Assembly (NCBI GenBank): GCA_016181305.1
Contig: JACOZN010000012.1
Span: 965 to 64,964, forward strand
Direction: 5' to 3'
DNA length: 64,000 bases
Origin: Candidatus Woesearchaeota archaeon
GTDB taxonomy: Archaea; Nanobdellota; Nanobdellia; Woesearchaeales; GW2011-AR4
Below, in pieces: positions 28,233 through 47,515 of the stretch (its first letter is position 1; each line of letters begins with the position of its first letter). A program made the position numbers and the translations under genes. Under the pieces are notes generated by a model. It was not told the origin of the DNA and ran no database searches. It worked only from the letters and a program-made list of their open reading frames with translations.

Positions 28233-28249
28233 TTTATTGCTTATTTATC

Positions 28250-30178: not shown

Positions 30179-30194
30179 TTTTACACCATATTTA

Positions 30195-30350
30195 TCATTT
30201 GGATTTCTTATTCAGCGCCTTCACGTCAATCTTGCTCAGGTCAATCTCCACATAGTCCTTCTCCGTCAGATTAAGAACCTTGACTATATCAGAAGGCACC
30301 CTTACAACAAGCCCTCCGCTTGTCTTCATCAGCTTTTTTGTGTACTTCAT
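30195..30350 (-). CDS. AbrB/SpoVT-like small DNA-binding protein (51 aa; absent from ORF track)
   Basis: My own translation: MKYTKKLMKTSGGLVVRVPSDIVKVLNLTEKDYVEIDLSKIDVKALNKKSK. The G-x-V-x-(I/V)P...L-x-L...D-x-V pattern is typical of the swapped-hairpin AbrB fold. It ends 16 nt before the 642-aa gene. Confidence 0.6.
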   Translation of the reverse strand: MKYTKKLMKTSGGLVVRVPSDIVKVLNLTEKDYVEIDLSKIDVKALNKKSK

Positions 30351-30457
30351 TTCATATATGAAATATAGATATTTTATATATTTTTTATATATTTCTCAAT
30401 ATTAAAAAGGATAGATTTATATATAAATTATATATGAGATTTATAAATATTGCGGTT

Positions 30458-31216
30458 TTACAGCCTCTGGGCTTCCTCAGCCAGAGTGGAGGCGTAGTAC
30501 CTTGCAAAAGCTATGTACGCCAGCAGGATCAGCGCCTGAAAAACTTCCGAGTACCTGTATTTGGCTGAATTTGTTATCCTTGAAATTGCATAAAGCAGGG
30601 AGAGCATCGCAGCGTAAGGCAGAAGAAAAAGATGAATCTTCGCGAAATTAAGCTTGACCGCCTCGATTATCGACTTCAAATTCCGCCTCTTCATGAAAAT
30701 CGTGTACAGCGTGTTGGTGAGGTAAAGCGCCAATATTGCAATTATAACTACAAACACCTGGACAGCCGCGGGCTCCACAAGCCAAAAAATTGCAGAAACC
30801 AGCAGAAGCCAAAACCCCATCCAGGCCAAGTTCAAGCCGAGAAACCTTGAGATCAGCGCAAGGCTTATTCTTGTTTTTGTAGTTTTTGCCCATATGATTC
30901 CCTTGAGGATGCTTGCGGTGAATATTATGGCAACCATTAGGAGTATGGCTGAAAAAATAATGAGGTAATAGAACTGGGACAGCAGCTGGTAAGCTTTGTC
31001 ATAGCCGATGGCAGCCAAATCAGAAGGAGACTGCAGCGGTATTGAGTAGCCTTTTTCTTTTATCCTCTGCAGCCAGAATAGGATGAAATAGCCTGACAGG
31101 AAATAGAACAGCGCATCAAGTATTATTACCAGTATAATTTCCAGGCCGATTTTTTTGACCGATGAAACAAGGACATTGGTGTTCCATTCAAGAAAATCCG
31201 CTTTTTTATTCTTCAT
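30458..31216 (-). CDS. polytopic membrane protein, terminal gene of island module B
   Basis: 252 aa, about 6 TM segments. It starts 5 nt after the 1455-aa gene and parallels the 20864..21691 product. Confidence 0.7.
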   Translation of the reverse strand: MKNKKADFLEWNTNVLVSSVKKIGLEIILVIILDALFYFLSGYFILFWLQRIKEKGYSIPLQSPSDLAAIGYDKAYQLLSQFYYLIIFSAILLMVAIIFTASILKGIIWAKTTKTRISLALISRFLGLNLAWMGFWLLLVSAIFWLVEPAAVQVFVVIIAILALYLTNTLYTIFMKRRNLKSIIEAVKLNFAKIHLFLLPYAAMLSLLYAISRITNSAKYRYSEVFQALILLAYIAFARYYASTLAEEAQRL

Positions 31217-31221
31217 TTTGG

Positions 31222-34200: not shown

Positions 34201-35589
34201 ATAGCTATATGAACCCCTTGGATCTCCTTGTACATTTTTTACAAGAAATTCTTTACTTTGACTTCTGAAAACTTCACCTTCAAGAGGTATGACAAAAATA
34301 CCTTTGGGTACGCCAGTTTCATAAAATCCATAAGCCTCGTCATAATAATACCCTCTTAATCCTGATAAAGTTCCGTAGAAATCCTCTGGTGGTGGATTGT
34401 AAAGTCTGAATGTGTGAACTTCACCATCTTTATCGGTAAATGTTAAAGTTTCCGGAGCTTCCCTTATATCAACTATACCCAATTTTCTGTAGTTTAGGCT
34501 ATTTGACTTTCCAATTTCGGTATTAAGTTTTTCTGGCTCTTGAGTTGCTGAAATTTGTGATATGCTTGCACCAAAATCTTCATTTTGCTGGTAGTCTGTA
34601 TTTTTTCCCAAGTAGCTAAGGTAAACACCTTTGTCGACATTTATGCCGTCTATTATTCCGTACCAATCATCAACTTTTGGATCAAATTTTCCATCACCAT
34701 CAATATCTACCCAGTCTATATAACCCCTGCCTTCAAATTCCCTCCTATATTGGACAGTTTTTATTGTTCCTTGTTGCTGTGTTTCCGAAATCGTACTAAT
34801 CCCCGGAAAACTTGAGCTTTTTTTGATACCCTGGAGATATTCCTGATATGCTTCCTGTGCTTCTTCATTTTCAGGAGGGGCTCCGATTTCAGTCAGTTGC
34901 TGAGCTACATCCTCTAGCTCGGGATTGACAAAAGAAAGCTTATGCACGTCCTTGGCAGGGTACTCCTTTTTGCCGAATAGGCCATAGAATGTAACCTTCC
35001 ATTCTTTTGCGTTATTATCCCAAATGAATATTGCTTTGTCATATAAAAATGGGTCACGCACTTCAGAACGGAAGTAATAGGCTTGATTTTTTGTGGCTCT
35101 TTGCAGTGACTCTGATTTCTTGTCGCTTAAAATCTGGAATCCTGTTATGCGGGCAAGTTTTGAAATTATTGTTATTTCTTCTTCCACAAACTCCCCTTCA
35201 TCCGCAACCTCGCTTTCAGGCAGCCCTGTGAAAGTCTTGTCAAGCCTTGCTGTCCCGTCTGCTTCAACAATCAACAGCCCATTCTGTTCCTCCGGGTTCC
35301 TTACTTTTATGTACAATGAAACATAAGAGTTGAAGCTGTCGAGGTAATACACATAGCCGTTGATTATCTGGTACCATCCCTCGTTTAAATGGCTTAGCTC
35401 ATTCACATTTCTGACTTCAATGGTTTTCAGCCCAAACCCATTTTCGCTTATTGCAGTTTCCTTAGCAACATTGGCTGTTATATTATTTTCATAAACAATA
35501 GATGTTGCCAGTACAAGAGACAAAATTATAATTATGGTTGTGAATACAAGCAGCGCTTCTGCCATTTTACCTGGGATTTTTTGCTTCAT
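31222..35589 (-). CDS. giant anchored/secreted protein (1455 aa)
   Basis: Uninterrupted 4.4 kb ORF with an N-terminal signal anchor (ALLVFTTIIIILSLVLATSIVY). The C-terminal ~250 aa resemble part of the 2179-aa protein. The tail is Thr/Gly-rich. Confidence 0.85.
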   Translation of the reverse strand: MKQKIPGKMAEALLVFTTIIIILSLVLATSIVYENNITANVAKETAISENGFGLKTIEVRNVNELSHLNEGWYQIINGYVYYLDSFNSYVSLYIKVRNPEEQNGLLIVEADGTARLDKTFTGLPESEVADEGEFVEEEITIISKLARITGFQILSDKKSESLQRATKNQAYYFRSEVRDPFLYDKAIFIWDNNAKEWKVTFYGLFGKKEYPAKDVHKLSFVNPELEDVAQQLTEIGAPPENEEAQEAYQEYLQGIKKSSSFPGISTISETQQQGTIKTVQYRREFEGRGYIDWVDIDGDGKFDPKVDDWYGIIDGINVDKGVYLSYLGKNTDYQQNEDFGASISQISATQEPEKLNTEIGKSNSLNYRKLGIVDIREAPETLTFTDKDGEVHTFRLYNPPPEDFYGTLSGLRGYYYDEAYGFYETGVPKGIFVIPLEGEVFRSQSKEFLVKNVQGDPRGSYSYDVEIKSVVESQVIENPLGKIFDVSTQGKTQEQYDTELLEIAQKNEYIQIGSEEYYLDGDSIENLKLMRVRTLGGCDLCYPDETVSPDEYNEIHSEALRLIQEAQAPADASKPDSQEKPKYQRIQDFADNPDTTLGEYNVREDGTIVNNNNQVVGALEGGELEKYKGKKIEVRLTDGLSRATVNIIEEKSTTIPETPATETQLQATIGPAIKKGGEYYILSGNRELKASPVIDEESGNIVGFNYKDADNKYYITTESEVYRVEPNGQLVLLEKYASTALVEQRSAPSPAPRQIQQPQPLAKQTYINQEDDQKARDVNPQTLEKYPVGKCPPTISCVRVEYGRVLVQGEEDVRSTTKEIKEGAPPDILSVSAPARTVSPAVKEKILVLGRDNKQYELEIFNPVEGKQKIVYGGVEITTDASLLKGVDFKKGFSYNAQTGAITVTAPGGDQRVIVKDGATEIATDRKYGKDKSLIKETRTEIFEDRRTKTTITDNPLNPEKFQKIETTTLADGSRIEVKYEPKQAQLTDKAEVKVTVDGKTTQLSGKSFSELQSTNPNLVTDENRRNQILTEAVKAGVDLTKTQQGVIGDKSGLHLNFEGENILTMQKDLVKREVTKDGIEKVYEGSVKLEDGVPTLGEGATSRTFNSKGELQEVKFVKDGQKYEFDYSDKDRIKIDTPRGYMEIDKTFGFDPTDTNYGKIKVFTAICPVDECIFEGSGLLSGPTLYYLDSEGKKKFVDADSEILALMQTAADNQMVHGKKGKEGFTLKQLNSQRFFAEVERIFTEFRGLGYYATLFFDEDSLMQWRDKIDRAFATLYLGTEYWSSAICSQYIDGEDEGVAFAETPQGLAQIGAHIEARRTEAIETGTGQEFIYMITFNIRNGDYDKDPRAPEEMNVNVLLKGERRVNVFKSDVEIKRGSTFGRMGRNAIVQESAFLYTQVCIVFDEIPLRWKLEDKELCNTIVESSGEPTPISGTTATATTSTGTGGSSDINDF

Positions 35590-38500
35590 TTTTTTGTTTT
35601 AACCGGCGTAAAGCCAGAATCTCCTGTTGTCTTTTTTGGCTTTGACTTGTCCTTCAAGTCCAATCTCGAGCAATAATCTTCCCTTACCTTAAATCCTTCA
35701 TCTATAATATTTTTCACATTGCCTATGACTTCCCCTGTTTTCGCCAATAGCCTCCAGCCTTCGCATGCTGTGAATACTGCAGTAGAGGTTGGCGCCGGTG
35801 CAGGGCAAGTCGTCTTGCACAGCAATGCAACTCCGACTCCCAAGGCTGAAAAGGGGTTTGACAAGGCGTCCTTTATTATTCCGGTAAAGTGGTCGAACAC
35901 GGCAGTGTAGGGAATCAGTGCAAAAAGCTCTCCGTAAACATACTTGCAGGTTGAAAATGCTTTCAGGTCCTCGCATGCGGTCACTGGCAGCCCATCCTGC
36001 GCAACAGCGTTTTCCAAACAATCAGCATACAGGCATTTAATCTGCCTGTACTTGTCCAATCCGTAAATTATTCCGGGAATGCACGCAAACAAAGTAGCAA
36101 CTATGAGGTTTCTCTGCGGGTTCATGTATTCTGCAAAGCCTCCTTTGATTTGGTCGCCCACTTTAACCTGCCCTCCAAGAGAATACTTTCCTTCCCCTCC
36201 AGAAACATATTCAGGACTTGGTGTAGGCAGGTATTTTGCTCCGGGCAGGCTGTTAATCATGCCCTTTACGTTATTCTGCCAATATCCTAAAACCCATGGC
36301 GCCCATTGGCAGTTGACAAACTTGCAAGCCTTGACTCCAAAGTCTATGAAGGCATTTTGTGCAGCTTCTTCCCCGGCTTGCTGCGCCCCGCATTGGGCTG
36401 TCTTGGCGTTATAAGCTGCAGTACAAACCGGAATTCCTATTATAGGCAGTCCCCCTTTATAACAATTGTCAGTGAAAATTCCAAGAAGTACTGTTATGGT
36501 GTACATCACAGTAATAATATTGTACAGCGTAGCAAACAATTGGCATATCTTTTTTGCAATGGTGAAAAACTTGTTAAGGCTGGAGATAGCCTTGAAAATG
36601 CCCTCTGCATCATCCTTTGCGTCTTTTATCTTGCGCTGGATTTCGCTGCTTACCTCCCCTAATGGAAGATTTGAAAACAGGAGATTTATCTTTGCAGTTT
36701 CTATCTCCGGGTTTCGTGTTATGTCTGTACCGCTTCCAATCTTCGAGAATATGTTGAAAGAGCAGCTTAGGCTTGCATTGCTGAGCTTGAAGTCATCTTT
36801 CTTCAACGTTATCTTTATGACAGGCGACGTGCTTCCTGGCTCTGTGTTGAAAGTGTCAACGCTGTCCACGATTGATGTGTCGCCTGAGCAGCTTGCAGAC
36901 CCAATGAAAACAGTCGAGACAGCCTTTGTTGCTGATTTCTGGCTTAAGTCAACTTCGCAGAAAACCCTTTGGTTTATCAGCGGACCAAGCTGCCTGTCAA
37001 TTGTTTCAGGAGAGCACTCGGCTTCGCTCGTCCAGAAATTAGGCACAGTGGCGTTTTCCAGGCCATAAGTCTTCAATGACTTTGTAACAATAAGCGTGTT
37101 GCCTGCATTGTCGCTGAAGTTGAACGTTATGAAATCAGAGGCTTCAAGGTTTATGGGGTCAGTAAGCCATATGCATATGTTCTCGTCTGCCTGTATCTTT
37201 TCGCATTCTCCCTTGGCATCCGAGGCATCGCTTATGAAGCTGGAAAAGTCGGCTGATACAAAAACATCGTTGTCTTCTGTGACATTTGCAACTACAGCAA
37301 TCTTGTCGCCTATCTTGAAAAAGCCTGCAAATGCCTGGGCTAAGCCGCCTACATTGGTTATGTTCATGCTCTTCAACTGAGGGGCATCCTGGTCAAGCTT
37401 TACCTCAAGCTGCGTCTCTTCAGCAACTGAGTTTCCAAGCAAATCCGTTGTGTCAGAGCCTATGGAAATTGTGGAAACTGGCCTGAACCTGACATCTTCC
37501 CAGATGCATGTCCATCCTGACTCCTGAATGCAATTTGACGCTTTGAGCTTGGCTCCGTCAACAACAAGTATTGCGTCTTCCGGGCTCAAGCCCGTTGAGT
37601 CGTCGAAAACAGCTGTTACAACATTGCCTGATGCTTTGCCTATCAGCTGCCCGTCTGCCAAAGTGGACGTTGACAAGAGCTGCAAAACAGGCCCTTCCTC
37701 GTCCAAAGAAAGAAGCTTTGTAATTGTGACGCTTCCTTTGTTTCCTGACTTGTCAGAAGCATTGATTATGATATTCTTGAAGCCGCCAGTGCCTGGCTTG
37801 AGCTCAACAGCCCATGCGCATGCGCTTGTGCCGCCTTGCAGTGTGCACGATGCCTTTGCATTTTTTAAGGCTTGGCTGGGGTTTAATGCTGACAAATCAG
37901 CTGTTACTGAACTCAGGCTTAAGTCATCCCCAGATATATTGACAGCCACAACTGCGTCCGAGCCAACAGAGGAATAGGTGCTAATTGCTATGTCTTTTAC
38001 AAAAATGCCAAAAGTGCCGGGCAATGCCAAAGGAGGAGTGTTGTCTATTGTAAATGTTGCCGATGCATCGTCTGAAACCTGGCTGAATTTGTCGGTTGCC
38101 TTTGCAAACACAGAATTCAGGCCGTCGTCAAATACGCCGGAGTTAATGGATATGTTGGAGCTGTAAATGCACTCGCTTGAAGAAATGTCAACCTTTTGGC
38201 TGAGCGAGCTGTCCAGCGTGAAAAACTCTATGCTTTTTATTCCTGCGCACTTGCCGCCGCAGGACGGCTCGTCGCATGCAAAGTCCGCAATGCTGTAAGT
38301 GATGTTAATGTTCTGTCCTGAGGAAAACTTGCTCTTTGGAATGGTTAGCTTAACTTCAGGCGGCTTGTTGTCTATAGCCAATGAGCTTTGCTTTGAGTCG
38401 TCAAGAGTTTTGTCGTCCCTGTAAAGGTTTATTGTGACAGGGAATGATGTTGCATCAAATAATTCTGTGCCGCTGCTTGGGTATCTCAGCGTGCACAAAA

Positions 38501-38774
38501 AGCTTCCATTGGACAATGCATCGCACTTGTCAAACTGAATTCCTGGATCTGCCCCTACAACAATCTGCTCCGGAGTTATCGTGTCTCCGGCAATTGAAGC
38601 CTGCGCTTCCAAGTTGATGAAGTCCTCTTCGCGCGCAAATCCCTGGATATTGTCGCTTCCCTTCACAGACACTGTGCCTATGCCTGCATAGGCGCTTGTA
38701 GTGTAAAAAGGAATTGTCAGCACTAAGACTATCAGGAACGATGCAACAAACTGCATGTATTTTTCATTGCTCAT
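35586..38774 (-). CDS. giant secreted Cys-rich protein (1062 aa)
   Basis: The signal peptide ends LVLTIPFYTTSAYA, the same motif as the 2179-aa protein. It has Ig-like repeats, then hydrophobic segments and a Cys-rich C-terminal region (ACEDLKAFSTC). ATGA overlaps occur at both ends. Confidence 0.85.
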   Translation of the reverse strand: MSNEKYMQFVASFLIVLVLTIPFYTTSAYAGIGTVSVKGSDNIQGFAREEDFINLEAQASIAGDTITPEQIVVGADPGIQFDKCDALSNGSFLCTLRYPSSGTELFDATSFPVTINLYRDDKTLDDSKQSSLAIDNKPPEVKLTIPKSKFSSGQNINITYSIADFACDEPSCGGKCAGIKSIEFFTLDSSLSQKVDISSSECIYSSNISINSGVFDDGLNSVFAKATDKFSQVSDDASATFTIDNTPPLALPGTFGIFVKDIAISTYSSVGSDAVVAVNISGDDLSLSSVTADLSALNPSQALKNAKASCTLQGGTSACAWAVELKPGTGGFKNIIINASDKSGNKGSVTITKLLSLDEEGPVLQLLSTSTLADGQLIGKASGNVVTAVFDDSTGLSPEDAILVVDGAKLKASNCIQESGWTCIWEDVRFRPVSTISIGSDTTDLLGNSVAEETQLEVKLDQDAPQLKSMNITNVGGLAQAFAGFFKIGDKIAVVANVTEDNDVFVSADFSSFISDASDAKGECEKIQADENICIWLTDPINLEASDFITFNFSDNAGNTLIVTKSLKTYGLENATVPNFWTSEAECSPETIDRQLGPLINQRVFCEVDLSQKSATKAVSTVFIGSASCSGDTSIVDSVDTFNTEPGSTSPVIKITLKKDDFKLSNASLSCSFNIFSKIGSGTDITRNPEIETAKINLLFSNLPLGEVSSEIQRKIKDAKDDAEGIFKAISSLNKFFTIAKKICQLFATLYNIITVMYTITVLLGIFTDNCYKGGLPIIGIPVCTAAYNAKTAQCGAQQAGEEAAQNAFIDFGVKACKFVNCQWAPWVLGYWQNNVKGMINSLPGAKYLPTPSPEYVSGGEGKYSLGGQVKVGDQIKGGFAEYMNPQRNLIVATLFACIPGIIYGLDKYRQIKCLYADCLENAVAQDGLPVTACEDLKAFSTCKYVYGELFALIPYTAVFDHFTGIIKDALSNPFSALGVGVALLCKTTCPAPAPTSTAVFTACEGWRLLAKTGEVIGNVKNIIDEGFKVREDYCSRLDLKDKSKPKKTTGDSGFTPVKTKK

Positions 38775-40894
38775 TTTAACTGGAATGACGGCTGCAGGGC
38801 AGCCTGGTATGTTTTTGAGTAATCCTCAACCCTGTTCATCTGCTCAATGTCCTCTATCACCCTCTGGCTTTCAGGCACATCTGCAATGCCTATGCTGACT
38901 GCATAAAGCACGATTGTATTGTGCTTTTCAAGCTCGTTTGCGCCAATCGTGAAATTCAGCTTAAGCCCTCCCTCATTGAAATTCTCTCCATAATCAATTT
39001 TTTGTATTGTAAAGCATTCTTTGCCTCCGAAAAATCCCTTCTTGACGCACTTCTGCCTTTCGGGAATCACTATCATTTCGTTGAGCAATAGTGTTATGTC
39101 AGCCGAGTAAGCGCCTGGCGCAATTTCTATTTCGCTTGACTCTTTCTGCTGCCCTTCGTAGCCGGCAATTGAGGAAAAATCAAGCTCGGTGCCGTCGCTG
39201 ATTCTTGTCAGTACAACAGATGCCGACTCTTTGCTGCTCAAATCAGCAGCGGCATCGGAAAACTGCCATCCTTGCGGAGTCTTTACGACACTTTTTTTCC
39301 TGACAATCAGGTTTTTTGTGTAGATTGGGGTGAGCTGCGCCTCAACAGAATCTTCCCTGCCTGCTTTCGGGTCATACTCAACAGCCTTTCCTATGTAGCC
39401 GTCTTTGACTATGCTGACACTTCCGCCAACTCCAACAGGGAACTGCTCCTTCAAAATCCCGTTTGCATCTGTTGCGCCTATAAAGCAGCTTTCTCCTATA
39501 ATAGTGTAAAGCACCTGCGCATCTTCAACTGATTTTTTTGCTGCCGCATCAGCAGCATGTATTGTTATGTTGCCGCTTGTCCTTGAGTCGCAGAGCAGTG
39601 TCCTTTCCGACAATGAAGCCCTTTCCAAAGGAGCAAATCCAGCAGGCATGGGCTTGTTGTTCCTTATGTTGCCTTCAAGGAAGAAATTAAATGAGTAGCC
39701 CTGCCCGTTCAGCGCAAGGGGGTCCTGCACTTCAACCATCACAGGAAACGACAAGTCATACACAAACCTGTACTGCTGTATTCCGAAAAATGAAATCAGG
39801 CTGTTTGCAGAACTCGGCATGCACCGCTCGCCATTGCAGTTGAGCTCAAAGTACGCAGGCCAGAAATCAAGGTAAGTGAAATAAGCTGCAAGGTTTCTGA
39901 ATGAGCTGTTCGCAACAGGGATTATGGTTGAGTCGTAAAGCCTTTGGGCAAGCTCCGACTCAAATTCGTTCCTCTCGTAATTGTAAGTTCCGTCAACCTG
40001 GAAAAGAGGTATGTAAGATGTAAGCAGCCCGGTAACCTTATTTTTAACGTCGCTTTTCCTCCAGCTTGTTGACGAGCCGAACTTGAACTGCAGGTCCGAC
40101 ATGGGAGGCAGTTTTGACTTGTCAGTGCCTGAAAAAGCCACAAGCAAATTCAGGGCGTGCTTCTCAATGTAGCGGTGCTTTATCTCCATGTTTGTAATCT
40201 TTGTAGCCAGGTCATAGATTTTGTCAAGATTTATCGGAATTCTTGCAACGGACTGGCTCAGCCTTGTATTTGCAGCTTCTTTTTCTATATCCAGCGGATA
40301 GTCCACTATGACCAAAACATCGCTGGACGCTATTGTGACATCCGCATTTAATTTTCCGGCTTCGCTGATTTTGAATCCCTGGTCTGCAAATGGCTCGAAA
40401 TTTCTTGTGCATTCCCTGAACTTCAGGTTGATATGCCTTTCCAGCTGCTTTTCAATCGAATTGTCAGTTTGCCTGAGCTCGGGCCTTTTGGAAGAAAACC
40501 TGCAGTCGCCTTTGCAGCTGTTCGCCGACTTTAAATACCACCAGTACGCAGTTTTCAGCCCGGAGCCTTTTGTGAACTCGACAGCATCGCTTTCTGTGGG
40601 GTTTTGTGTTATTATGAACGCCTCCCTGTTCAGGCTCTTGTCTGCAAAGCTTATGTAGCCGCCCTGCTTTCCTATTATATTCAGCCCTTCCACTGCAACA
40701 GAATAAGCGCAGTCGTCCAGGTATTTTTTCACAGGGTCAAATTCAAGAGGCACCTGCTCCTGCACAATCCTCACTTCAGGCTCGAGCGGCTTGGCAATCT
40801 TCTGGGTGGTGTAGAAAAATATAGCGCCTCCGAGTATTATGACCAAGCCGACTATCATGAAAATTGTCGTCTGTGATTTTCTATTCAATTTCAT
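38771..40894 (-). CDS. KxQ-anchor / GGY-domain family protein (707 aa), paralog 2
   Basis: MKLNRKSQTTIFMIVGLVIILGGAIFFY, CAYSVAVEGLNIIGKQGGY, FRECTRNFEPF, VLVIVDYPLDI, IPINLDKIYDLA. Confidence 0.8.
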   Translation of the reverse strand: MKLNRKSQTTIFMIVGLVIILGGAIFFYTTQKIAKPLEPEVRIVQEQVPLEFDPVKKYLDDCAYSVAVEGLNIIGKQGGYISFADKSLNREAFIITQNPTESDAVEFTKGSGLKTAYWWYLKSANSCKGDCRFSSKRPELRQTDNSIEKQLERHINLKFRECTRNFEPFADQGFKISEAGKLNADVTIASSDVLVIVDYPLDIEKEAANTRLSQSVARIPINLDKIYDLATKITNMEIKHRYIEKHALNLLVAFSGTDKSKLPPMSDLQFKFGSSTSWRKSDVKNKVTGLLTSYIPLFQVDGTYNYERNEFESELAQRLYDSTIIPVANSSFRNLAAYFTYLDFWPAYFELNCNGERCMPSSANSLISFFGIQQYRFVYDLSFPVMVEVQDPLALNGQGYSFNFFLEGNIRNNKPMPAGFAPLERASLSERTLLCDSRTSGNITIHAADAAAKKSVEDAQVLYTIIGESCFIGATDANGILKEQFPVGVGGSVSIVKDGYIGKAVEYDPKAGREDSVEAQLTPIYTKNLIVRKKSVVKTPQGWQFSDAAADLSSKESASVVLTRISDGTELDFSSIAGYEGQQKESSEIEIAPGAYSADITLLLNEMIVIPERQKCVKKGFFGGKECFTIQKIDYGENFNEGGLKLNFTIGANELEKHNTIVLYAVSIGIADVPESQRVIEDIEQMNRVEDYSKTYQAALQPSFQLK

Positions 40895-41330: not shown

Positions 41331-42557
41331 ATGGCTGAAAAAAGTCTGGCTGATTACATTAAAAGCATGTCCCAAAAGGGCTACGATTCTTCCTCAATAA
41401 GGAACATATTGCTAAGGTATGGCTACAGCCAAAGGGATATTGACAGCGCAATGGGCTCTGCCACAAGCCATACCATAAGGCATGAAATTCATTTGTCCCA
41501 TACAACTGCATTGGTGATTATATTCCTCATTGTTTCTGCTGTGGGGGCTGTATCACTCATTTACCACAGCCCGTCAAAAACTCCCTCAAAGCTGCTGGAC
41601 CTGAACCTTGAGCCTGTGGCAACTACAGTCGAGGCGGGGCAAAACATTGTTTTTCTCAAGGAGCTTTCCAACCTAGGCTCTTCAGAAAGATATGATGTTG
41701 TCATAAAGCAGGATCTCATAGATCCGTTGACAAGCAGGATAATAACCCAAAAAATCGAGACAAGGGCAATAGAAACTTTCGGCTCGACACAGACAAGGAT
41801 TCTCGTGCCAAAAGAAGCAAAGCCTGGCGACTATATTTTAAGGGCTGTGGTAGAATACGGGGATAAAAAGGCAATTGCCACCCTGCCTGTAAAAATCGTG
41901 TCTTTTGCCGCTGAAACCTGTTTTGACGGCATAAAAAACCAGGACGAATCGTCTGCTGACTGCGGCGGAGCCTGCAAGCCCTGCGAAACCCAGGCAATTG
42001 AATGTGATGACAACAACCAATGCACGAATGATGTCGTGGAAAACGGCGCTTGCATAAACAAGCCGATAGCGCCATGCTGCGGGAACAAGGTATGCGAAGC
42101 TGAGGAGCAGGGCAGCTGCAGTGCAGACTGCATAAAAATTGAGCAACCCGCAATATCAAGCGAAACTCTGGACGACATAAAAGAGCTTGCAAGAGTTGAT
42201 CCGGCTAAGGCGCTGCAGCAGTGCATGAGGCAGGAGCTCCCCGACTATAAGGACGAGTGCATAAGCAACATTGCAGAGGTCCAGCGCAGCAAAGGCTACT
42301 GCCCGCAGATAACAAGCCCGAGGGCGAGGGATGTGTGCTATTTGAACATCGCAAAGCTTGCCAACGACAACTCAATATGCAGGGACATATCCACAGAAGG
42401 CAGGCGTGATTCATGCTACATGACATTTGTGCTCGACAACAAGGATTATTCAGTCTGCGGCAGCATAACAAACAAGCAGCTCAGGCAGTCATGCGAGTCA
42501 TTGAGGCAGCTGAATGACTTGAATCAAGCATCACAAAATCAAGCAGAGATTAGTTAG
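41331..42557 (+). CDS. membrane-anchored Cys-rich extracellular protein (408 aa)
   Basis: Small N-terminal helical domain, one TM, an Ig/CARDB-like segment, then Cys-rich modules (CFDGIKNQDESSADCGGACKPC; CDDNNQCTNDVVENGACINKPIAPCCGNKVC) and repeated C-x-D/N-x-C units. Confidence 0.75.
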   Translation: MAEKSLADYIKSMSQKGYDSSSIRNILLRYGYSQRDIDSAMGSATSHTIRHEIHLSHTTALVIIFLIVSAVGAVSLIYHSPSKTPSKLLDLNLEPVATTVEAGQNIVFLKELSNLGSSERYDVVIKQDLIDPLTSRIITQKIETRAIETFGSTQTRILVPKEAKPGDYILRAVVEYGDKKAIATLPVKIVSFAAETCFDGIKNQDESSADCGGACKPCETQAIECDDNNQCTNDVVENGACINKPIAPCCGNKVCEAEEQGSCSADCIKIEQPAISSETLDDIKELARVDPAKALQQCMRQELPDYKDECISNIAEVQRSKGYCPQITSPRARDVCYLNIAKLANDNSICRDISTEGRRDSCYMTFVLDNKDYSVCGSITNKQLRQSCESLRQLNDLNQASQNQAEIS

Positions 42558-42733: not shown

Positions 42734-44575
42734 ATGTATATATTCAAGCACAGGCAAAAACTGCGGAAAAAGAGGATTTACAGCAAAGCCCAGATGTCTG
42801 TATTCTGGATTATGGGCTTGGTTATGTTTATAGCGCTGGTTGCAGGCTTGTTCGTCTATAACGACTTAAGGACGGCTAAGATTAAGGAAGGGGCAAAAAA
42901 TGACCTGAGCTCGCAGGCAGAGGAAATTGAGAAATTTGTGAACGACTGCATAAGAAAAGAGGCGTTTGAGGGATTGAAAAGGCTTGGGCAGACTGGCGGC
43001 TATCTTGAAATCCCGAAAATCATAAGCTTCAAGGGCACAGGCTATTGGTACCTGGATGAGGTTAACATACAGCCAATCCTCAACCAGACTCAGGAAAGGC
43101 TGCTCGAGCACATCAGTGCAAACGTGCCAAAATGCGTTGACGACGAAAGAATAAAAGAGCTTGGGTTTGCAGTCCAAAAAGGGGCTATAAAAACGACAAT
43201 CGAGTTCGGAAATGCCGATGTGACAGTGAAGATAGAGTATCCAATAAGGCTTGAGAGGGAAAAATTCACAAAGGATTTCTCTGGTTTTTTCAACTCTTTT
43301 GACATAAGGTACAGGGCTGTGTTCGAGGCTGCCACAGAGGTGAATGAAAGGCTTTTCGACGCTGACTTCGACATCAAGAACCCATTGAAAAAATTGGATT
43401 ACCTGAAAAGCCTTGAATTTGATGTGTCATACAAGAGCCCTGAAACTGATGTAATGGTGTTTACAGTAACAGACAAGAAATCAATTCTGCCGACAAATGA
43501 GCTTTATACTTTCAGCTTTGCTGCGAGGCTCGGCACCTCTGACTTGAAGAAGTTCATTGACTTGCAGGACAACAGCGCCACAAATCCGGTATTTTTGCCC
43601 TACACAATTTATTCTGTTGACAAGAAGGCTCAGCTTGACATTTCATCAGGAACAACAATAAGCCTTGAAGGGCAGCCTGTAAAGGCGATAAGCGTTGAGC
43701 AAGCTTATCCAAATGAAGTCACAACAAAAGACGTCCCTGTCTACAAGAAAAACGACAAGATAATGCAAAAGCAGGACATAATCTATGTGATAGACAATCC
43801 CATATATACCTTTGAGCCTTCCGGGATTTTATTCAACAAGCACCAAAAGCTGGCTTTGTATTATGAGGATGAAATAAAGGCGAGCAAAGGCGTTGGAATT
43901 CTAATGGGAAAGAATGGCTTCTGGATTCCTATTCCGTCAAAGCACGAGCCTGAGCAGAAAAGGGTGTTTGCCAGCATACTAGGGTTTACTGAATTTACTG
44001 CTGTGAACTGCGCATCGCAAAAACTCAAGACAACAATTGCAGAGCATTTCTTTGAGCCAGCCCCTCCATGTTTTATATTCGGGGCATTGAGCATAATTGC
44101 TGTATTGGCAGTGGTTGTTACGCTTATCGGTGGTGGGCCTGTATTATTCGGACTTTTTGGCGGTCCAACTGCTGCTGAAGGTGGAATTATAAGTGCCATA
44201 GGCCAAGGCTTTATTAGCGGTTCAGAAGCTATCGGCATCGGCGGCATTACTTTTGGTGCTACCGCTGCCACAGTTGGAACTGTCCTTACAGGGCTAACAT
44301 TAGTTACTATAGCAGGCTCTATACTCGGAGCCACAACAGACGTCTTCTACGAAAAATCCCCTGAAAACTGCGAAACTTTCTATCCAGTCTGCGACCAGAA
44401 CATAAATATAGAAAAAGAGCTGAAAGACGGCACAGGGGACTGCATTCCGGACAGCGGCGCAAGGGTTGCCGCAGGAGCGCCTGCAAACGTATGCGCCCAG
44501 GTGAAGAAATGCGACTCATTGAGCAAGTTCTTCTGCAAGCCGTGCAGCGTGAAGTGTAGTGCGCAGTTTTATTGA
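42734..44575 (+). CDS. KxQ-anchor / GGY-domain family protein (613 aa), paralog 3, with Gly-rich membrane region and Cys-rich tail
   Basis: ...IYSKAQMSVFWIMGLVMFIALVAGLFVY, CIRKEAFEGLKRLGQTGGY, VPKCVDD, VTVKIEYPIRL, FDIRYRAVFEAA. The C-terminus has a ~90 aa G/A/I/T-rich hydrophobic stretch followed by 8 Cys in the last ~70 aa. Confidence 0.8.
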   Translation: MYIFKHRQKLRKKRIYSKAQMSVFWIMGLVMFIALVAGLFVYNDLRTAKIKEGAKNDLSSQAEEIEKFVNDCIRKEAFEGLKRLGQTGGYLEIPKIISFKGTGYWYLDEVNIQPILNQTQERLLEHISANVPKCVDDERIKELGFAVQKGAIKTTIEFGNADVTVKIEYPIRLEREKFTKDFSGFFNSFDIRYRAVFEAATEVNERLFDADFDIKNPLKKLDYLKSLEFDVSYKSPETDVMVFTVTDKKSILPTNELYTFSFAARLGTSDLKKFIDLQDNSATNPVFLPYTIYSVDKKAQLDISSGTTISLEGQPVKAISVEQAYPNEVTTKDVPVYKKNDKIMQKQDIIYVIDNPIYTFEPSGILFNKHQKLALYYEDEIKASKGVGILMGKNGFWIPIPSKHEPEQKRVFASILGFTEFTAVNCASQKLKTTIAEHFFEPAPPCFIFGALSIIAVLAVVVTLIGGGPVLFGLFGGPTAAEGGIISAIGQGFISGSEAIGIGGITFGATAATVGTVLTGLTLVTIAGSILGATTDVFYEKSPENCETFYPVCDQNINIEKELKDGTGDCIPDSGARVAAGAPANVCAQVKKCDSLSKFFCKPCSVKCSAQFY

Positions 44576-46149
44576 GGGTTATTTTTAAAATGATTGTAGT
44601 AAGCCATAACTTCTTTTACATAATCCCTCGTAGTGTAACCTGGCACAATAACTACATCAGGAACTGAGCGCTCTTTGGCGACTCTGGTGGGGCCAGCCTT
44701 GCTGTAACCTGCAGCAATCAATTGTAAGTTCCCGTTAAAGCGTTCTGTAAGATATGTGAGGACAGCCATTGATGCATCAGTAGCTGTATACTTATCCTTT
44801 TTAACTTCATTCCAGTCGTATGTCCCATATACTTCCCTTTGATTGACATCCTTCACAGCTATGTAGTTTAAGTGTCCTATCCCGTGATTTCCTTGGCTTG
44901 GTCCTACATAAGGGTCAAATTTTGACTCAACTGCAAATATGGCTTTGACAAGATTTTTATCAACTTTTAAGCTGGACAATTCTATCCTATTCACAATATC
45001 CTGATTTTTCGGAATATTTGTTTTTTCAACTAATCCTATATCCCTCTTAAACCTCTCACTTTCTCCCGATGGTATTTCAGCGTTGAACTTTACGCCCCTA
45101 ATTACAACTTCAGCATTTGTATTTGACTCAGTATTAGGCGGAATATTGGGATTCCATTTTACATTCGGCACCCTTATCTGCACATTCGAGTCTTTGTATT
45201 GAATCTCTGCATCGCCGTTTTTCAGGGCATTTAATAGCTTGATATTCTGGTCCGCATTATTTGCGCTCCTGTATGTTTCTCCCGGGAAAGTTTCTTCATA
45301 TTTTATTTTCCTCGCCTCGAAATTATTGCTGCCATAGCCTGCCTCCTTGAATACATCAGATATGGATTTGTCAGTGCCCAAAACAACAAAATTCCTTACA
45401 GGAGTAAGTGTATAGCCCAAATCATCCTCGACAAAAGAAAACCTGACCGGGCGGTTTTCAGCCATCAATTTAATGCCGTCAAATATCGTCTCTTCCTGCC
45501 GCGGCAGCACATATATATTGCTGTTTGCAAAGTCTATATAACGTTTATCGGATTTGCTAAATTTGTATCCTTTGCCGTCAAAGACTATGTCTGCTCCGGG
45601 AAGAGTTGTTGTCTTAGAATCGCCCTCAAACCTTATTGTATTTGTCTTTTCGTTATAGAAAAACTTGGTGTTTTTCCCTATTTTCTGCTCTAAAACCCTG
45701 GAGTTGTCGCCAGCAACGCCGCTAATCTCGCTGGAATATTGGTTGTATTTAACCCCATTGGAGTTTTCTATGGGCAAGCCATTAAACGGGCTATTTTTAA
45801 TTGAAAACACACCCTTTTCAATTGAAAAGCCGTCCAGTTGTTTGGAGTATGTGCCCTTGCCGGTAAACACTGCTCCGCTGTCTTTAAGAGTGGCAGTTGC
45901 ATCAACAACGCGAACCTTGCCGAGAAAATCAGCTGGAATTTCAGCAGAGCTTCCGAAAGTTAATGTCAGGGAATTTGATTCTTTATTGTAGTAAAAACTA
46001 TCGCCCACTATTTTAATGCCTATATTTTTATCAATCCATTTTGCCCTGTCTTCTTGTGTTCCACACTTGTCATAGTCGTCGCATGCGCCCTGCACAAAGG
46101 CACCAAGCGCAAAAAGTGCAATAATCCAGACCAAAATTATTTTTTTCAT
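44569..46149 (-). CDS. secreted protein with C-terminal SLT (lytic transglycosylase / GH23-like) domain
   Basis: I prefer the ATG at 46149 (MKKIILVWIIALFALGAFVQGA signal peptide), 1 nt after the stop of the 256-aa gene. The C-terminus reads LVKAIFAVESKFDP...GNHGIGHL...AVLTYL...LIAAGYSKAGPTRV, which fits the SLT pattern (A-I-x-x-x-E-S, G-L-M-Q-like, Y-L, A-Y-N-A-G). Confidence 0.7.
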   Translation of the reverse strand: MKKIILVWIIALFALGAFVQGACDDYDKCGTQEDRAKWIDKNIGIKIVGDSFYYNKESNSLTLTFGSSAEIPADFLGKVRVVDATATLKDSGAVFTGKGTYSKQLDGFSIEKGVFSIKNSPFNGLPIENSNGVKYNQYSSEISGVAGDNSRVLEQKIGKNTKFFYNEKTNTIRFEGDSKTTTLPGADIVFDGKGYKFSKSDKRYIDFANSNIYVLPRQEETIFDGIKLMAENRPVRFSFVEDDLGYTLTPVRNFVVLGTDKSISDVFKEAGYGSNNFEARKIKYEETFPGETYRSANNADQNIKLLNALKNGDAEIQYKDSNVQIRVPNVKWNPNIPPNTESNTNAEVVIRGVKFNAEIPSGESERFKRDIGLVEKTNIPKNQDIVNRIELSSLKVDKNLVKAIFAVESKFDPYVGPSQGNHGIGHLNYIAVKDVNQREVYGTYDWNEVKKDKYTATDASMAVLTYLTERFNGNLQLIAAGYSKAGPTRVAKERSVPDVVIVPGYTTRDYVKEVMAYYNHFKNNPQ

Positions 46150-46150
46150 C

Positions 46151-46921
46151 CTATTTTTCCATCGCAAAGCTGAATATGTAGTCATCTCCATCCACTTTAG
46201 TTGCATTGTCAAAAATAGTGAAAATCATAGAATCTTTCTCTGAAACAACATCAATAAAGACATTGTTTTCCGAGGCCAAGTCGATGAGGCAGTCTATGCA
46301 CAAGGCTCCATTGTCCCTTATTTTGCCTTCTGTTATGTTTGAAGCTAGGATGTATATTGTATTGAGCCTGACAGGGACCTCCGCCCTGAAATAGGGTATT
46401 TGAGTTTCTGCGCCTTCCTTGGAAATTGTAATTGGATAATTAATGTCAACTAAAACGCTTTCAGTGCCTATGGTTGATTTGACAGAGATGGCGCCTCCTT
46501 CAATCCTTGCCCCCTGGAAGTCCTGAAGCCCCTCAATGCATTGCGGCAGCTGCTCCGCTACATAGCCCGATATCTGCATCTCGACAGAGCTTCTTGAAGG
46601 CATTGTATTCCTGCTTTGATAGGCATAGTAAGGCACCTCGTCGTAGAAATAGGTTAGCTTTGGTTCAGGCACCTTGTAGTATCCCCCGTACAATCCCGTG
46701 TAAACAACTGAGTCTTTGGCTGTTTCACTCACGCAGAAATCAATGTTCAGCTTGGCAGGCAGCAGCGAGGAGGGCGCGTCTGCAACATTGACAATTTCGC
46801 TTGCTGCTTCAGCCTCCGCCCTTGTTTTGTTTATAGCAACATAGCTGATGAAAGAAGCAGCTATCACCAGCACTAGCCCAAATATAAGAAACAATGCAAC
46901 TTGGGTTTTTTTGCTCGCCAT
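46151..46921 (-). CDS. KxQ-anchor / GGY-domain family protein (256 aa), minimal paralog 4
   Basis: MASKKTQVALFLIFGLVLVIAASFISY, CVSETAKDSVVYTGLYGGY, LPQCIEGLQDF, VLVDINYPITI, VPVRLNTIYILA. It consists of little more than the shared domain. Confidence 0.75.
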   Translation of the reverse strand: MASKKTQVALFLIFGLVLVIAASFISYVAINKTRAEAEAASEIVNVADAPSSLLPAKLNIDFCVSETAKDSVVYTGLYGGYYKVPEPKLTYFYDEVPYYAYQSRNTMPSRSSVEMQISGYVAEQLPQCIEGLQDFQGARIEGGAISVKSTIGTESVLVDINYPITISKEGAETQIPYFRAEVPVRLNTIYILASNITEGKIRDNGALCIDCLIDLASENNVFIDVVSEKDSMIFTIFDNATKVDGDDYIFSFAMEK

Positions 46922-47515
46922 CTTTTTTGCCCGTTATTTCTTTATCTTAAATCATACTTAATAAATCTTTTGCGGAGCCCTGATTTTGCCGTATTTGCCT
47001 AAGAAATTTTATATAAAATATATAATGTAAAAACAAAAGCTTTAAATATAACATCGTTATAAGTAGCTCAATAAAATGGCAAATGGCATAAAGTGGATGG
47101 AAGTGAGTATTCTAAGTCTAATTAGGACTATCCACACAACAGCTACAACAGCTGTGATGTGCTGATTGCCAATTTTAACCTTAATTTTCTAAAACAAGAT
47201 TGGAGGTGTTAAAATTGGTACAAAAGACTAAACTAAGCAATGCGGAAAAGAAAGATTTTGAAGAATTCCTTCAAAATTTGTTGGTAGTAGACTTCAACAA
47301 CCGAAATGAAGAATCGAAATACAAGTGAAAATGGGATATAAACATTTAAATATCCACTGGCTTGACAGCCATTTCATGATTAGGCAAGATTATTATAGAT
47401 GCTGTTATTGTTGCTAGTTCTGGTTGTTTTTACTTAAGCGAGGCGGTATATCCCTAAAAATATATCCAAATTATTTTTTCACAAAATTTGTGTTTTCCAA
47501 AAAAATGGTTTTATT

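What the first reader, a model, noticed from the sequence alone, without database searches (positions are those of the whole stretch)
44569..46149. Secreted SLT (lytic-transglycosylase-like) domain protein inside the island of an apparent archaeon
The C-terminal ~130 aa follow the SLT/GH23 pattern (AIFAVESKFDP ... GIGHL ... LTYL ... AAGYSKAGPTRV), behind a signal peptide and a ~380 aa N-terminal region. The gene is coupled by a 1-nt spacer to the minimal KxQ/GGY paralog. Archaea of this type are not expected to make murein. A murein-cleaving enzyme tied to a surface apparatus could therefore target bacterial cell walls (a bacterial partner or prey) or pseudomurein-like polymers. Alternatively it could work like the specialised transglycosylases of bacterial secretion and pilus systems. 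The gene also looks AT-richer than the rest of the island by eye.
Basis: partly seen in the sequence, partly recalled or inferred. Interest (0 to 1): 0.6.

Follow-up and report, generated by a model that had tools for sequence, protein, structure and literature searches.

The report
Small wall-cutting enzyme of Woesearchaeal surface cluster
A tiny DPANN (Woesearchaeota-type) archaeon with no detectable cell-wall (murein) synthesis genes encodes a secreted protein ending in a bacterial-type wall-cutting domain; such enzymes are already known in these archaea, but here the domain sits on a small new carrier protein instead of inside the giant surface proteins that carry it in sister species.

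Summary
Window 44569-46149 (-) encodes a 526-aa protein with a Sec-type signal peptide, a ~370-aa N-terminal region and a C-terminal SLT/GH23 domain. The SLT match is Pfam PF01464, 28.6 bits against a cut-off of 21.3, and the catalytic Glu-Ser is kept. One nucleotide separates it from the upstream 256-aa 'GGY' gene. The contig is archaeal, and no PBP or Mur-ligase gene was found in the 78%-complete genome.

The general idea, extracellular SLT proteins in Woese-/Pacearchaeota that may attack bacterial walls, is already published (PMC8204110, PMC9723730).

Three points are specific to this locus:
1. This is a rare architecture found only in this genus: a beta-rich module with no fold match, a 55-aa helical module and SLT. 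It follows a ~250-aa gene (shown to be a GGY homolog in six) in all eight SLT loci examined.
2. In six sister species the orthologous cluster carries SLT inside its giant proteins. In three genomes with the small carrier, the giants lack SLT. The two patterns are complementary.
3. The linker+SLT cassette (window 44585-45157) was replaced by recombination. Against the closest relative, amino-acid identity is 92% N-terminally and 31% in the cassette, where synonymous sites are saturated.

This copy's SLT is also atypical: Q→H in GLMQ, and N→S plus an insertion in AYNAG.

Verdict: a new variant of a known kind, of moderate interest.

The parts
44569..46149 (-). Gene for the 526-aa secreted SLT-domain protein (P0001)
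46087..46149 (-). Sec-type signal peptide, aa 1-21 (MKK, a hydrophobic core, then VQG|A). It is not a class III (pilin) signal.
   Evidence: sequence inspection; helix 2-24 in the model
45385..46083 (-). N-terminal beta-rich module, aa 23-255. It has no Pfam, PDB or BFVD match. In relatives it is followed by an SLT C-terminus, with one exception (G018/P0023).
45190..45372 (-). Helical module of about 55 aa, aa 260-320 (SISDVFKEAGYG...QNIKLLNALKNG). It is the best-conserved part of the protein (pLDDT about 90) and also occurs in non-SLT proteins (P0017, P0021; genomes G308, G179).
44585..45157 (-). Replaced cassette (linker plus SLT domain, aa ~331-526). No DNA alignment to the closest relative L020, although both flanks are 89-90% identical. 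Synonymous sites are saturated.
44572..44979 (-). SLT/GH23 domain, aa 391-526. The catalytic Glu408 codon is at 44926-44928. Motif II reads GIGH (Q→H) and motif III reads GYSKAG (N→S plus an inserted K). The motif IV Tyr is kept (TRDYVKEV).
46151..46921 (-). Upstream 256-aa 'KKTQ/GGY' protein with an N-terminal anchor or pilin-like helix. It is translationally coupled to the SLT gene (1-nt spacer). A ~250-aa gene sits at the same tight junction in all 8 SLT loci examined; in six it is shown to be a GGY homolog.
42734..44575 (+). Convergent 613-aa GGY paralog. Its stop overlaps the 3' end of the SLT gene. It is present in L017 and L020 and absent from the more distant loci (L001, L019, G036, G001).
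41331..42557 (+). 408-aa membrane protein with a Cys-rich ectodomain. It is conserved next to the SLT gene or the cluster in relatives.
21693..40894 (-). Core of the conserved surface cluster: 707-aa GGY, 1062-aa, 1455-aa, 252-aa, 642-aa GGY and 2179-aa (FN3) proteins. None has an SLT domain in this genome. Orthologs of the 1455- and 2179-aa proteins carry SLT in sister species.

Best explanation
The gene encodes an exported, probably active, murein lytic-transglycosylase-type enzyme. I propose that it is the wall-cutting component of a lineage-specific Woesearchaeal cell-surface apparatus.

Proposed layout. The apparatus consists of N-terminally anchored (pilin-like) 'GGY' proteins and giant secreted proteins. 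The SLT protein is made together with the 256-aa GGY protein from a tightly coupled two-gene unit. Its conserved N-terminal beta and helical modules would dock it to that partner or to the target surface. A roughly 60-aa disordered linker holds the SLT head, which would locally cleave the glycan strands of a bacterial partner's peptidoglycan at the contact site.

Relation to sister species. In sister species the same activity is built into the giant proteins of the same cluster. Here it has been moved onto a small dedicated carrier, and the enzyme cassette itself has been exchanged by recombination.

Shown: the domain identity, catalytic Glu, export signal, archaeal host, no detectable murein synthesis genes, conserved operon and cluster, complementary placement of SLT, and cassette replacement.

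Inferred: catalytic activity, murein as substrate, docking to the GGY partner, and a bacterial target cell.
For: Domain and activity:
- SLT domain above the Pfam cut-off, in all family members.
- Glu-Ser is invariant in 78/78 and 77/78 aligned SLT domains. The Tyr of motifs III and IV is kept.
- Foldseek top hits are Slt, Slt70 and MltC.
- Purifying selection acts on the N-terminal part (dN/dS about 0.19 against L020) and on the SLT domain of a related pair (about 0.16).

Host:
- Archaeal contig in a 1.07-Mb genome in which no PBP, Mur ligase or AnmK was found.

Linkage to the cluster:
- The ~250-aa upstream gene is joined by a 1-nt spacer or 4-nt overlap at seven junctions (unreadable in L001) across eight SLT loci spanning 29-67% identity; six of the upstream genes are shown GGY homologs.
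- The orthologous cluster in G011, G003, G027, G006 and G007 carries SLT inside the 1455-type giant. In G031 it sits in the 2179-type giant. These genomes lack the small carrier.
- In the window, G036 and G001 the giants lack SLT and the small carrier is present.

Cassette swap.

Literature: proposes the same target for the giant proteins.
Against: - No biochemical evidence exists for any DPANN SLT protein.
- Every cultivated DPANN host so far is an archaeon (my own knowledge, not checked here).
- This copy is the only one of 78 aligned SLT domains with His for the Gln of GLMQ, and the only one with Ser plus an inserted Lys in AYNAG. Its activity or specificity may therefore be altered.
- The SLT part of the structure model is of low confidence (pLDDT 45-70).
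- The protein has a Sec signal, not a pilin signal. Its physical link to the GGY proteins rests on gene order only.
- No prepilin peptidase was found and no pilus ATPase lies on the contig.
- The complementary distribution rests on 9 related genomes, without phylogenetic correction.
- The genome is only 78% complete, so the absences are provisional.
Confidence: 0.5

Rival explanations
1. It is a freely released bacteriolytic or scavenging enzyme. It digests bacterial cells or wall debris in the surroundings for nutrients or competition, and works independently of the neighbouring surface proteins.
For: It has a Sec signal and no membrane anchor or pilin signal. Archaeal peptidoglycan hydrolases that kill bacteria have been shown in other phyla. 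Its nearest non-family SLT relatives are small stand-alone bacterial proteins and a phage protein.
Against: The tight junction with a ~250-aa upstream gene (a GGY homolog where checked), and the fixed position beside the same cluster, persist down to 29% identity. The complementary placement of SLT inside the cluster's giant proteins in sister species points to one shared function. No AnmK for using anhydro-MurNAc was found, although the genome is incomplete.
Confidence: 0.15
2. The SLT-fold domain acts on a glycan other than bacterial murein. Candidates are pseudomurein of a methanogen partner, chitin-like or other GlcNAc polymers, or the archaeon's own envelope glycans during assembly of the apparatus.
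For: Motifs II and III, which I recall as substrate-contacting, are uniquely altered here (Q→H, N→S plus an insertion). From my own knowledge, GH23 also contains chitinases, and Woesearchaeota have been proposed to partner with methanogens.
Against: The other family members and the giant-protein SLT domains keep canonical GLMQ/AYNAG-type motifs. Pseudomurein has beta-1,3 links and lacks MurNAc, and is not a known SLT substrate (my own knowledge). No Mur-ligase homolog, which pseudomurein synthesis would need, was found in the genome.
Confidence: 0.15
3. The domain in this copy is catalytically weak or dead and serves as a murein-binding (adhesin) head.
For: Q→H and N→S plus an insertion occur at two of the four conserved motifs, uniquely among 78 domains. 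The branch is very long (1.56) in the SLT tree. The AF2 confidence for the domain is low.
Against: The catalytic Glu-Ser pair and both conserved Tyr residues are intact. The 190-codon cassette is open with no stop codon. His could still donate the hydrogen bond that Gln provides (inference).
Confidence: 0.12
4. The gene is bacterial contamination or an assembly chimera, not an archaeal gene.
For: SLT is near-universal in bacteria and absent from the four archaeal control genomes. Two relative contigs carry odd NCBI labels.
Against: The same gene order (RFC large subunit, ValRS, CysRS, GGY, SLT, further cluster genes) recurs in independent assemblies from ENA, NCBI and Logan. The gene's GC equals the genome mean. 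RFC large subunit lies on the same contig. PF01464 occurs in 48 of 61 relatives.
Confidence: 0.01

Closest known systems
[quoted passage not shown] 2021, PMC8204110; GH23 genes of Vigneron et al. 2022, PMC9723730; first noted by Rinke 2013 and Castelle 2015, as cited there)
   Same: Same lineage, same SLT domain, exported, and the same proposed target (bacterial murein). In sister species the giant SLT proteins are orthologs of the 1455- and 2179-aa proteins of this very cluster.
   Different: This protein is only 526 aa. It has a different N-terminal module, restricted to this genus and without a fold match, plus a helical module. It is a separate gene coupled to a small GGY protein. It occurs where the giants lack SLT. 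Its cassette has been swapped and carries atypical motifs.
Family 1 bacterial lytic transglycosylases (E. coli Slt70, MltC, MltE; P. aeruginosa Slt)
   Same: Sequence-profile and fold matches. The catalytic Glu-Ser and the Tyr of motifs III and IV are shared.
   Different: There is no superhelical or other known accessory domain. The host shows no murein pathway. Motif II Gln is His, and motif III Asn is Ser with an inserted Lys.
Specialised lytic transglycosylases of bacterial envelope-spanning machines (VirB1, EtgA, FlgJ-type; named from my own knowledge)
   Same: An SLT enzyme encoded inside the gene cluster of a surface apparatus and conserved with it.
   Different: Those enzymes open the producer's own sacculus. 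This producer has no detectable sacculus, so any wall that is cut must belong to another cell. No secretion or pilus ATPase is in the cluster.
Phage virion-associated and tail lysins, and modular (domain-swapping) cell-wall hydrolases
   Same: A carrier module with an exchangeable enzymatic head, and recombinational replacement of the head between close relatives. One of the nearest SLT domains (P0020) sits among T4-like tail and baseplate genes. One family member (G018/P0023) carries a non-SLT C-terminal domain.
   Different: The gene is chromosomal, at a fixed position next to cysS/valS in a cellular genome. There are no phage genes nearby.

Membership tests
SLT / GH23 family-1 lytic transglycosylase domain (Pfam PF01464) | Profile match above the curated gathering score | tested here: met
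   28.6 bits against a cut-off of 21.3, E=1.1e-6. 7 of 7 relatives match. The family profile hits Slt70, Slt and MltC at 1.5e-6.
SLT / GH23 family-1 lytic transglycosylase domain (Pfam PF01464) | Catalytic Glu in the E-S motif (motif I) | tested here: met
   E408-S409. E is present in 78/78 and S in 77/78 aligned domains. It aligns to the QES motif of Slt70.
SLT / GH23 family-1 lytic transglycosylase domain (Pfam PF01464) | Motif II G-L-M-Q | tested here: not met
   The sequence is GIGH. Gln is found in 76 of 78 aligned domains and His only here.
SLT / GH23 family-1 lytic transglycosylase domain (Pfam PF01464) | Motif III A-Y-N-x-G | tested here: inconclusive
   The sequence is GYSKAG. Tyr is kept. 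Asn (73/78) is replaced by Ser, and a one-residue insertion is unique to this copy.
SLT / GH23 family-1 lytic transglycosylase domain (Pfam PF01464) | C-terminal Tyr motif (T-R-x-Y-V-x-x-V) | tested here: met
   TRDYVKEV aligns to TRGYVKNV of Slt70.
SLT / GH23 family-1 lytic transglycosylase domain (Pfam PF01464) | Lysozyme-like alpha-helical fold | tested here: inconclusive
   Foldseek top hits are Slt, Slt70 and MltC with probability about 1.0 but E of 2e-3 to 4e-2. The domain's pLDDT is only 45-70.
SLT / GH23 family-1 lytic transglycosylase domain (Pfam PF01464) | Cleaves MurNAc-GlcNAc bonds and forms 1,6-anhydroMurNAc | not testable with these tools
   This needs an enzyme assay.
DPANN large extracellular SLT proteins (fam00969, PMC8204110) | Encoded by Woese-/Pacearchaeota and exported | tested here: met
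   The closest relative contig is titled Candidatus Woesearchaeota. RFC large subunit lies on the contig. A signal peptide is present.
DPANN large extracellular SLT proteins (fam00969, PMC8204110) | Giant multidomain protein (up to about 3000 aa) containing the SLT domain | tested here: not met
   This protein is 526 aa. The giants of this cluster (1062, 1455 and 2179 aa) have no SLT. Their orthologs in sister species do.
Specialised transglycosylases of pilus and secretion systems | The producer has its own peptidoglycan layer that the machine must cross | tested here: not met
   No PF00905 and no PF08245 in the genome, while the bacterial controls are positive. The genome is 78% complete.
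Specialised transglycosylases of pilus and secretion systems | Encoded with the assembly ATPase and platform genes of the machine | tested here: not met
   T2SSE-family ATPases lie on contigs C2, C1 and C19, not on C18. No Peptidase_A24 was found.
Modular type IV pilins with an enzymatic head | Class III (prepilin) signal peptide on the enzyme-bearing protein | tested here: not met
   The N-terminus is a Sec-type signal (MKK, hydrophobic core, VQG|A). The K-[S/A/T]-Q type N-termini are on the neighbouring GGY proteins, not on this one.

The most novel reading that the evidence does not exclude
The SLT head is a mobile, exchangeable 'warhead' of a so far undescribed contact apparatus of Woesearchaeales, built from GGY anchor proteins and giant scaffold proteins. 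These archaea would use the apparatus to open the walls of bacterial partners. Within one genus the head has moved between two different giant scaffolds and a small dedicated carrier. It has also been replaced by recombination between near-identical carriers. This is the pattern expected if the head determines which bacterial walls can be breached, that is, a host-range determinant under an arms race.
Probability: 0.3. Interest if true: 0.7.

Novelty: new variant of a known kind. Interest (0 to 1): 0.4.

Why it matters
No DPANN archaeon of the Woesearchaeota/Pacearchaeota type has been cultivated with a known partner, and whether any archaeon lives on bacteria remains open.

The published clue is the giant SLT proteins, which are too large and too poorly understood to handle at the bench. 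This locus offers a small, soluble-looking 526-aa version of the same function that could be expressed. It also offers a defined candidate partner (the 256-aa GGY protein) and a natural experiment: sister species that carry the domain on different scaffolds or with a different cassette. Together these make the hypothesis 'these archaea cut bacterial walls at a surface apparatus' directly testable.

If the enzyme proves inactive on murein, that would equally weaken a widely repeated genomic inference.

Tried and rejected
1. Fold or family for the N-terminal region. Pfam and NCBIfam gave nothing. PDB sequence and profile searches hit only the SLT part. A good N-terminal-only AF2 model (pLDDT 81.5) found no Foldseek match at E≤1e-3 in PDB or BFVD. 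The weak LptA, TamB and chorein-N (beta-taco) resemblances have probability ≤0.4 and TM ≤0.42, and I do not rely on them.

2. Helical module as a Cpl-7/CW_7-type murein-binding repeat. This was my own recollection of a similar motif. A profile search of the PDB and a Pfam scan of 8 copies gave no support. Rejected as untested resemblance.

3. C-terminus of P0017 as a 3D/MltA-like domain, and C-terminus of the G018 variant (P0023) as an M15/VanY-like peptidase. Both guesses came from motifs. Neither got a Pfam, PDB or homolog hit. Left as orphan domains.

4. Phylogeny to show bacterial origin or a foreign donor of the cassette. The 132-column SLT tree is mostly unresolved, and P0001 is a long branch. 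The AU test does not reject a P0001+P0002+P0003 clade (p=0.60). Cassette replacement therefore rests on the DNA and codon evidence, not on the tree. No donor closer than 40% identity exists among 1.84 billion representative proteins.

5. Archaeal markers. No SSU rRNA and no ribosomal protein S3Ae were found in this incomplete MAG. ARAGORN found no tRNA in the window. Archaeal identity rests on RFC large subunit, on synteny and on the named relatives.

6. Pilus reading of the cluster. No prepilin peptidase was found, and the pilus ATPases lie on other contigs.

7. The sigma-70 promoter and terminator scan was uninformative for an archaeon.


Full report
**1. What is there**

The minus-strand ORF at window 44569-46149 encodes 526 aa. 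It starts with a Sec-type signal (MKKIILVWIIALFALGAFVQG|A).

Pfam places an SLT domain (PF01464) at aa 395-493, with E=1.1e-6 and 28.6 bits against a gathering score of 21.3. NCBIfam gives only weak partial matches to murein transglycosylases.

The junction with the upstream gene reads AAA TAG G ATG, so exactly one base separates the two genes. The gene ends 7 nt inside the convergent 613-aa gene.

The gene is 40.4% GC, close to the genome mean of 41.1%. The other island genes are 44-48% GC, apart from the 1455-aa gene at 41.4%.

**2. The host is an archaeon with no detectable murein genes**

The window is contig C18 of a 1.07-Mb assembly of 22 contigs, 78% complete.

- Six kb from the gene lies a replication factor C large subunit (NF003229, 388.9 bits, cut-off 280).
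- The closest relative contig is titled 'Candidatus Woesearchaeota archaeon RIFCSPHIGHO2_02_FULL_40_54'. It is the same contig as G015:C57, listed as the same genus.
- The genome has no match to the PBP transpeptidase domain (PF00905), the Mur-ligase domain (PF08245) or AnmK (PF03702). The bacterial controls are positive for each.
- No SSU rRNA or S3Ae was found in this incomplete MAG.

The same gene order (SNF transporter, beta-lactamase-like, RFC, ValRS, CysRS, GGY, SLT, next cluster gene) recurs in an independent ENA assembly (L020). Shorter parts of it (CysRS, GGY, SLT and the next cluster genes) recur in NCBI and Logan contigs. This rules out a chimera.

**3. The general phenomenon is published**

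Castelle et al. [quoted passage not shown] They propose that it binds or degrades bacterial walls. Vigneron et al. 2022 and an oxygen-deficient-zone study repeat the inference. Strock et al. 2025 show active peptidoglycan hydrolases in other archaea.

In my own census, PF01464 is present in 48 of 61 relatives of the same genus or order. An SLT domain in this kind of archaeon is therefore expected, not surprising.

**4. What kind of SLT protein this is**

*Family size and spread.*
- The word-index search found only six relatives (35-67% identity), all with SLT.
- The exhaustive search of 1.84 billion representative proteins found 77 hits. Fourteen of them match the N-terminal region or the whole protein.
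- Every relative that matches the beta-rich N-terminal module and was scanned ends in SLT. The one exception is noted in section 9.
- The 313-aa N-terminal piece is found in 7 of 43 genomes of the genus.
- In a 401-genome sample of the order, only the window's own genome has it. Two other genomes carry just the helical module, in unrelated proteins.

*Structure.*
- An N-terminal-only AlphaFold model is confident (pLDDT 81.5, pTM 0.70). It shows a beta-rich module (aa ~45-255) followed by a three-helix module (aa ~263-310).
- Foldseek finds nothing at E≤1e-3 in PDB or BFVD.
- Pfam and PDB profile searches of the helical module are empty.
- In the full-length model, aa 325-388 form a disordered linker. 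The SLT part matches Slt, Slt70 and MltC.

**5. Is the enzyme intact?**

Aligned to Slt70, Glu408 falls on the catalytic Glu of the QES motif, and TRDYVKEV aligns with TRGYVKNV.

Across 78 aligned SLT domains:
- The Glu is invariant.
- Ser409 is present in 77.
- Both Tyr residues are kept.
- This copy is the only one with His in place of the Gln of G-L-M-Q (76/78 have Gln).
- It is the only one with Ser plus an inserted Lys in A-Y-N-x-G (73/78 have Asn).

I read this as probably active, but possibly with changed specificity.

Selection is purifying on the N-terminal part (dN 0.045, dS 0.233 against L020). It is also purifying on the SLT domain of the P0004/P0005 pair (dN 0.154, dS 0.97).

**6. 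The enzyme cassette was replaced**

I compared the window with its closest relative, P0002 on locus L020.

| Measure | N-terminal part (aa 23-330) | Cassette |
|---|---|---|
| Amino-acid identity | 92% | 31% (aa 391-526) |
| DNA alignment | 89.6% identity over window 47421-45158 | none over 45157-44585; resumes at 89% from 44584, within 15 nt of the stop |
| Same codon among identical amino acids | 88% | 42% |
| Same third base at fourfold sites | 65/81 | 7/25, about random |
| Synonymous difference (pS) | 0.20 | 0.76 |

This is ancient divergence inside a young gene. It indicates recombinational replacement, not fast local evolution.

The linker of this copy (VKWNPNIPPN...IRGVKFNA) resembles the P0004/P0005 type rather than the P0002/P0003 type.

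No donor closer than 40% identity exists in the representative library. The SLT tree cannot place the cassette: it is a long branch, and the AU test for a clade with P0002/P0003 gives p=0.60.

The nearest non-family SLT domains (36-40% identity):
- P0018, in a Gram-negative bacterial chromosome context with LptE, MurJ, SecA and Lnt.
- P0019, a protein labelled Burkholderiales.
- P0020, among T4-like tail and baseplate genes.

Bacterial or phage ancestry of the domain is therefore plausible, but it is not shown by the tree.

**7. Link to the surface cluster**

*Coupling to the upstream gene.* In all eight SLT loci I could examine, the SLT gene directly follows a co-directional gene of about 250 aa. 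At seven junctions it is joined by a 1-nt spacer or a 4-nt overlap. The eighth junction, in L001, is unreadable because of Ns. These loci are the window, L020, L021/L022, L019, L001, the P0003 contig, G036 and G001. In six of them the upstream product is a demonstrated GGY homolog; for L021/L022 it was only seen to carry the KxQ start and GGY motif, and for the P0003 contig it was not examined. Identity of the SLT protein's N-terminal part to the window's falls to 29% across these loci. The P0007 contig and the non-SLT variant in G018 (section 9) show the same kind of junction.

*The GGY family.* It is present in 43 of 43 genomes of the genus, with several copies in each.

*The cluster.* Next to the pair lie:
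- a 408-aa membrane protein;
- the core cluster 707(GGY)-1062-1455-252-642(GGY)-2179.

This arrangement is conserved in sister species.

*Complementary placement of SLT.*

| Genomes | Where SLT sits | Small carrier family |
|---|---|---|
| G011, G003, G027, G006, G007 | inside the ortholog of the 1455-aa protein; at aa ~160-350 in the first four, with total lengths of 1171-3407 aa | absent |
| G031 | near the C-terminus of the ortholog of the 2179-aa protein | absent |
| Window | none in any cluster giant | present |
| G036, G001 | no SLT match inside the cluster interval | present |

That is six genomes against three with no overlap. The pattern is suggestive of functional equivalence. The sample is small and not corrected for phylogeny.

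The giants are evidently the published fam00969 type.

*Limits of the 'pilus' reading.* The K-[S/A/T]-Q N-termini of the GGY proteins look like class III signals. However, I found no Peptidase_A24 in the genome. The T2SSE-type ATPases are on other contigs. 'Pilin-like' therefore remains a description, not a finding.

**8. Mechanism and rivals**

*Best reading (confidence about 0.5).* This is an exported lytic-transglycosylase-type head on a small carrier. It is produced with, and probably docked to, a GGY protein of a lineage-specific surface apparatus. It would cut the peptidoglycan of a bacterial partner where the two cells touch.

*Shown:* domain identity, catalytic residues, export signal, archaeal host with no detectable murein genes, conserved operon and cluster, complementary placement, and cassette swap.

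*Inferred:* activity, substrate, docking, and the bacterial target.

*Rivals:*
- a freely released lysin or scavenging enzyme (0.15);
- action on a non-murein glycan (0.15);
- a binding-only head (0.12);
- contamination (0.01).

A role like VirB1 or EtgA, which open the producer's own wall, lacks a substrate here.

**9. Other observations**

- One family member (G018, P0023) has the same upstream gene and the same N-terminal and helical modules. It ends in a 165-aa Cys-rich domain with no detectable relatives, instead of SLT.
- A second SLT protein lies on contig C15. It is a multi-pass membrane protein with an extracellular region and canonical GLMQ and GYNCG motifs. Frames of similar length (about 1030-1255 aa) that carry SLT recur across the genus.

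**10. Verdict**

What is new here:
- a small architecture restricted to this genus, on an unassignable carrier fold;
- tight coupling to a GGY protein;
- complementarity with the SLT-bearing giants of the same cluster;
- a clean recombinational swap of the enzyme cassette;
- an atypical active-site neighbourhood.

I class it as a new variant of a known kind, with interest about 0.4.

Noticed in passing
window 47421-48276: The LAGLIDADG endonuclease gene region is an insertion relative to the closest relative. L020 has about 44 nt where the window has about 855 nt, between two blocks that align at 80-90% identity.
   Followed up: partly
window 53753-54589 (-): A class A beta-lactamase-family protein (PF13354, E=7e-41; NCBIfam bla_class_A only 81 bits against a cut-off of 200). 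It has intact S-x-x-K (SLIK) and SDN motifs, and KFG in place of KTG. It sits in an archaeon with no detectable murein genes. It is conserved at the same position in L020 and might act on murein peptides.
   Followed up: partly
G000:C15:145495-148764 (-) (L003): A second SLT protein of the same genome, in a ~1090-aa open frame. It has a charged N-terminus, about 10 membrane helices, an extracellular region, an SLT domain with canonical GLMQ and GYNCG motifs but E-N instead of E-S, and a C-terminal tail. SLT-bearing frames of similar length (1030-1255 aa) recur in many genomes of the genus.
   Followed up: partly
L042:1058-2737 (G018:C52; P0023): A member of the same carrier family, with the same upstream gene, beta module and a variant helical module. 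It ends in a 165-aa Cys-rich domain instead of SLT. That domain has no Pfam, PDB or sequence relatives.
   Followed up: yes
L018 / L019 (CAZJBR010000012.1, CAZFEZ010000091.1): These two contigs are titled 'uncultured Methanosarcinales archaeon'. By length and gene content they match G032:C12 and G035:C91, which are listed as the same genus as the window's Woesearchaeota-type genome. The NCBI labels look wrong.
   Followed up: partly
window 44112-44292 (inside the 613-aa gene): The Gly/Ala-rich membrane segment of the 613-aa GGY paralog does not align at DNA level with L020, although both flanks are 89-93% identical. This is a second local hypervariable or replaced segment next to the SLT cassette.
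   Followed up: no
P0017, P0021; G308:C65:23790-23966; G179:C45:2574-2744: The 55-aa helical module (S-I-S-D-V-F-K-x-A-G-Y-G ... Q-N-x-K-L-L-N-A-L-K) also occurs, at 51-65% identity, in 560-650-aa proteins without an SLT domain, from another family of the same order. It is a mobile module of unknown function.
   Followed up: partly
L001 vs L019 (P0004/P0005): Synonymous divergence is more than twice as high in the SLT domain (dS 0.97) as in the N-terminal part (dS 0.40) of this closely related pair as well. This hints that the head diverges or recombines separately in other lineages too.
   Followed up: no
P0007 contig (ENA ERZ27297570, no DNA held): Here the pair of upstream ~244-aa gene plus SLT gene is followed by a PemK/MazE toxin-antitoxin pair instead of the usual cluster genes. 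The two-gene unit can therefore occur in another context.
   Followed up: no
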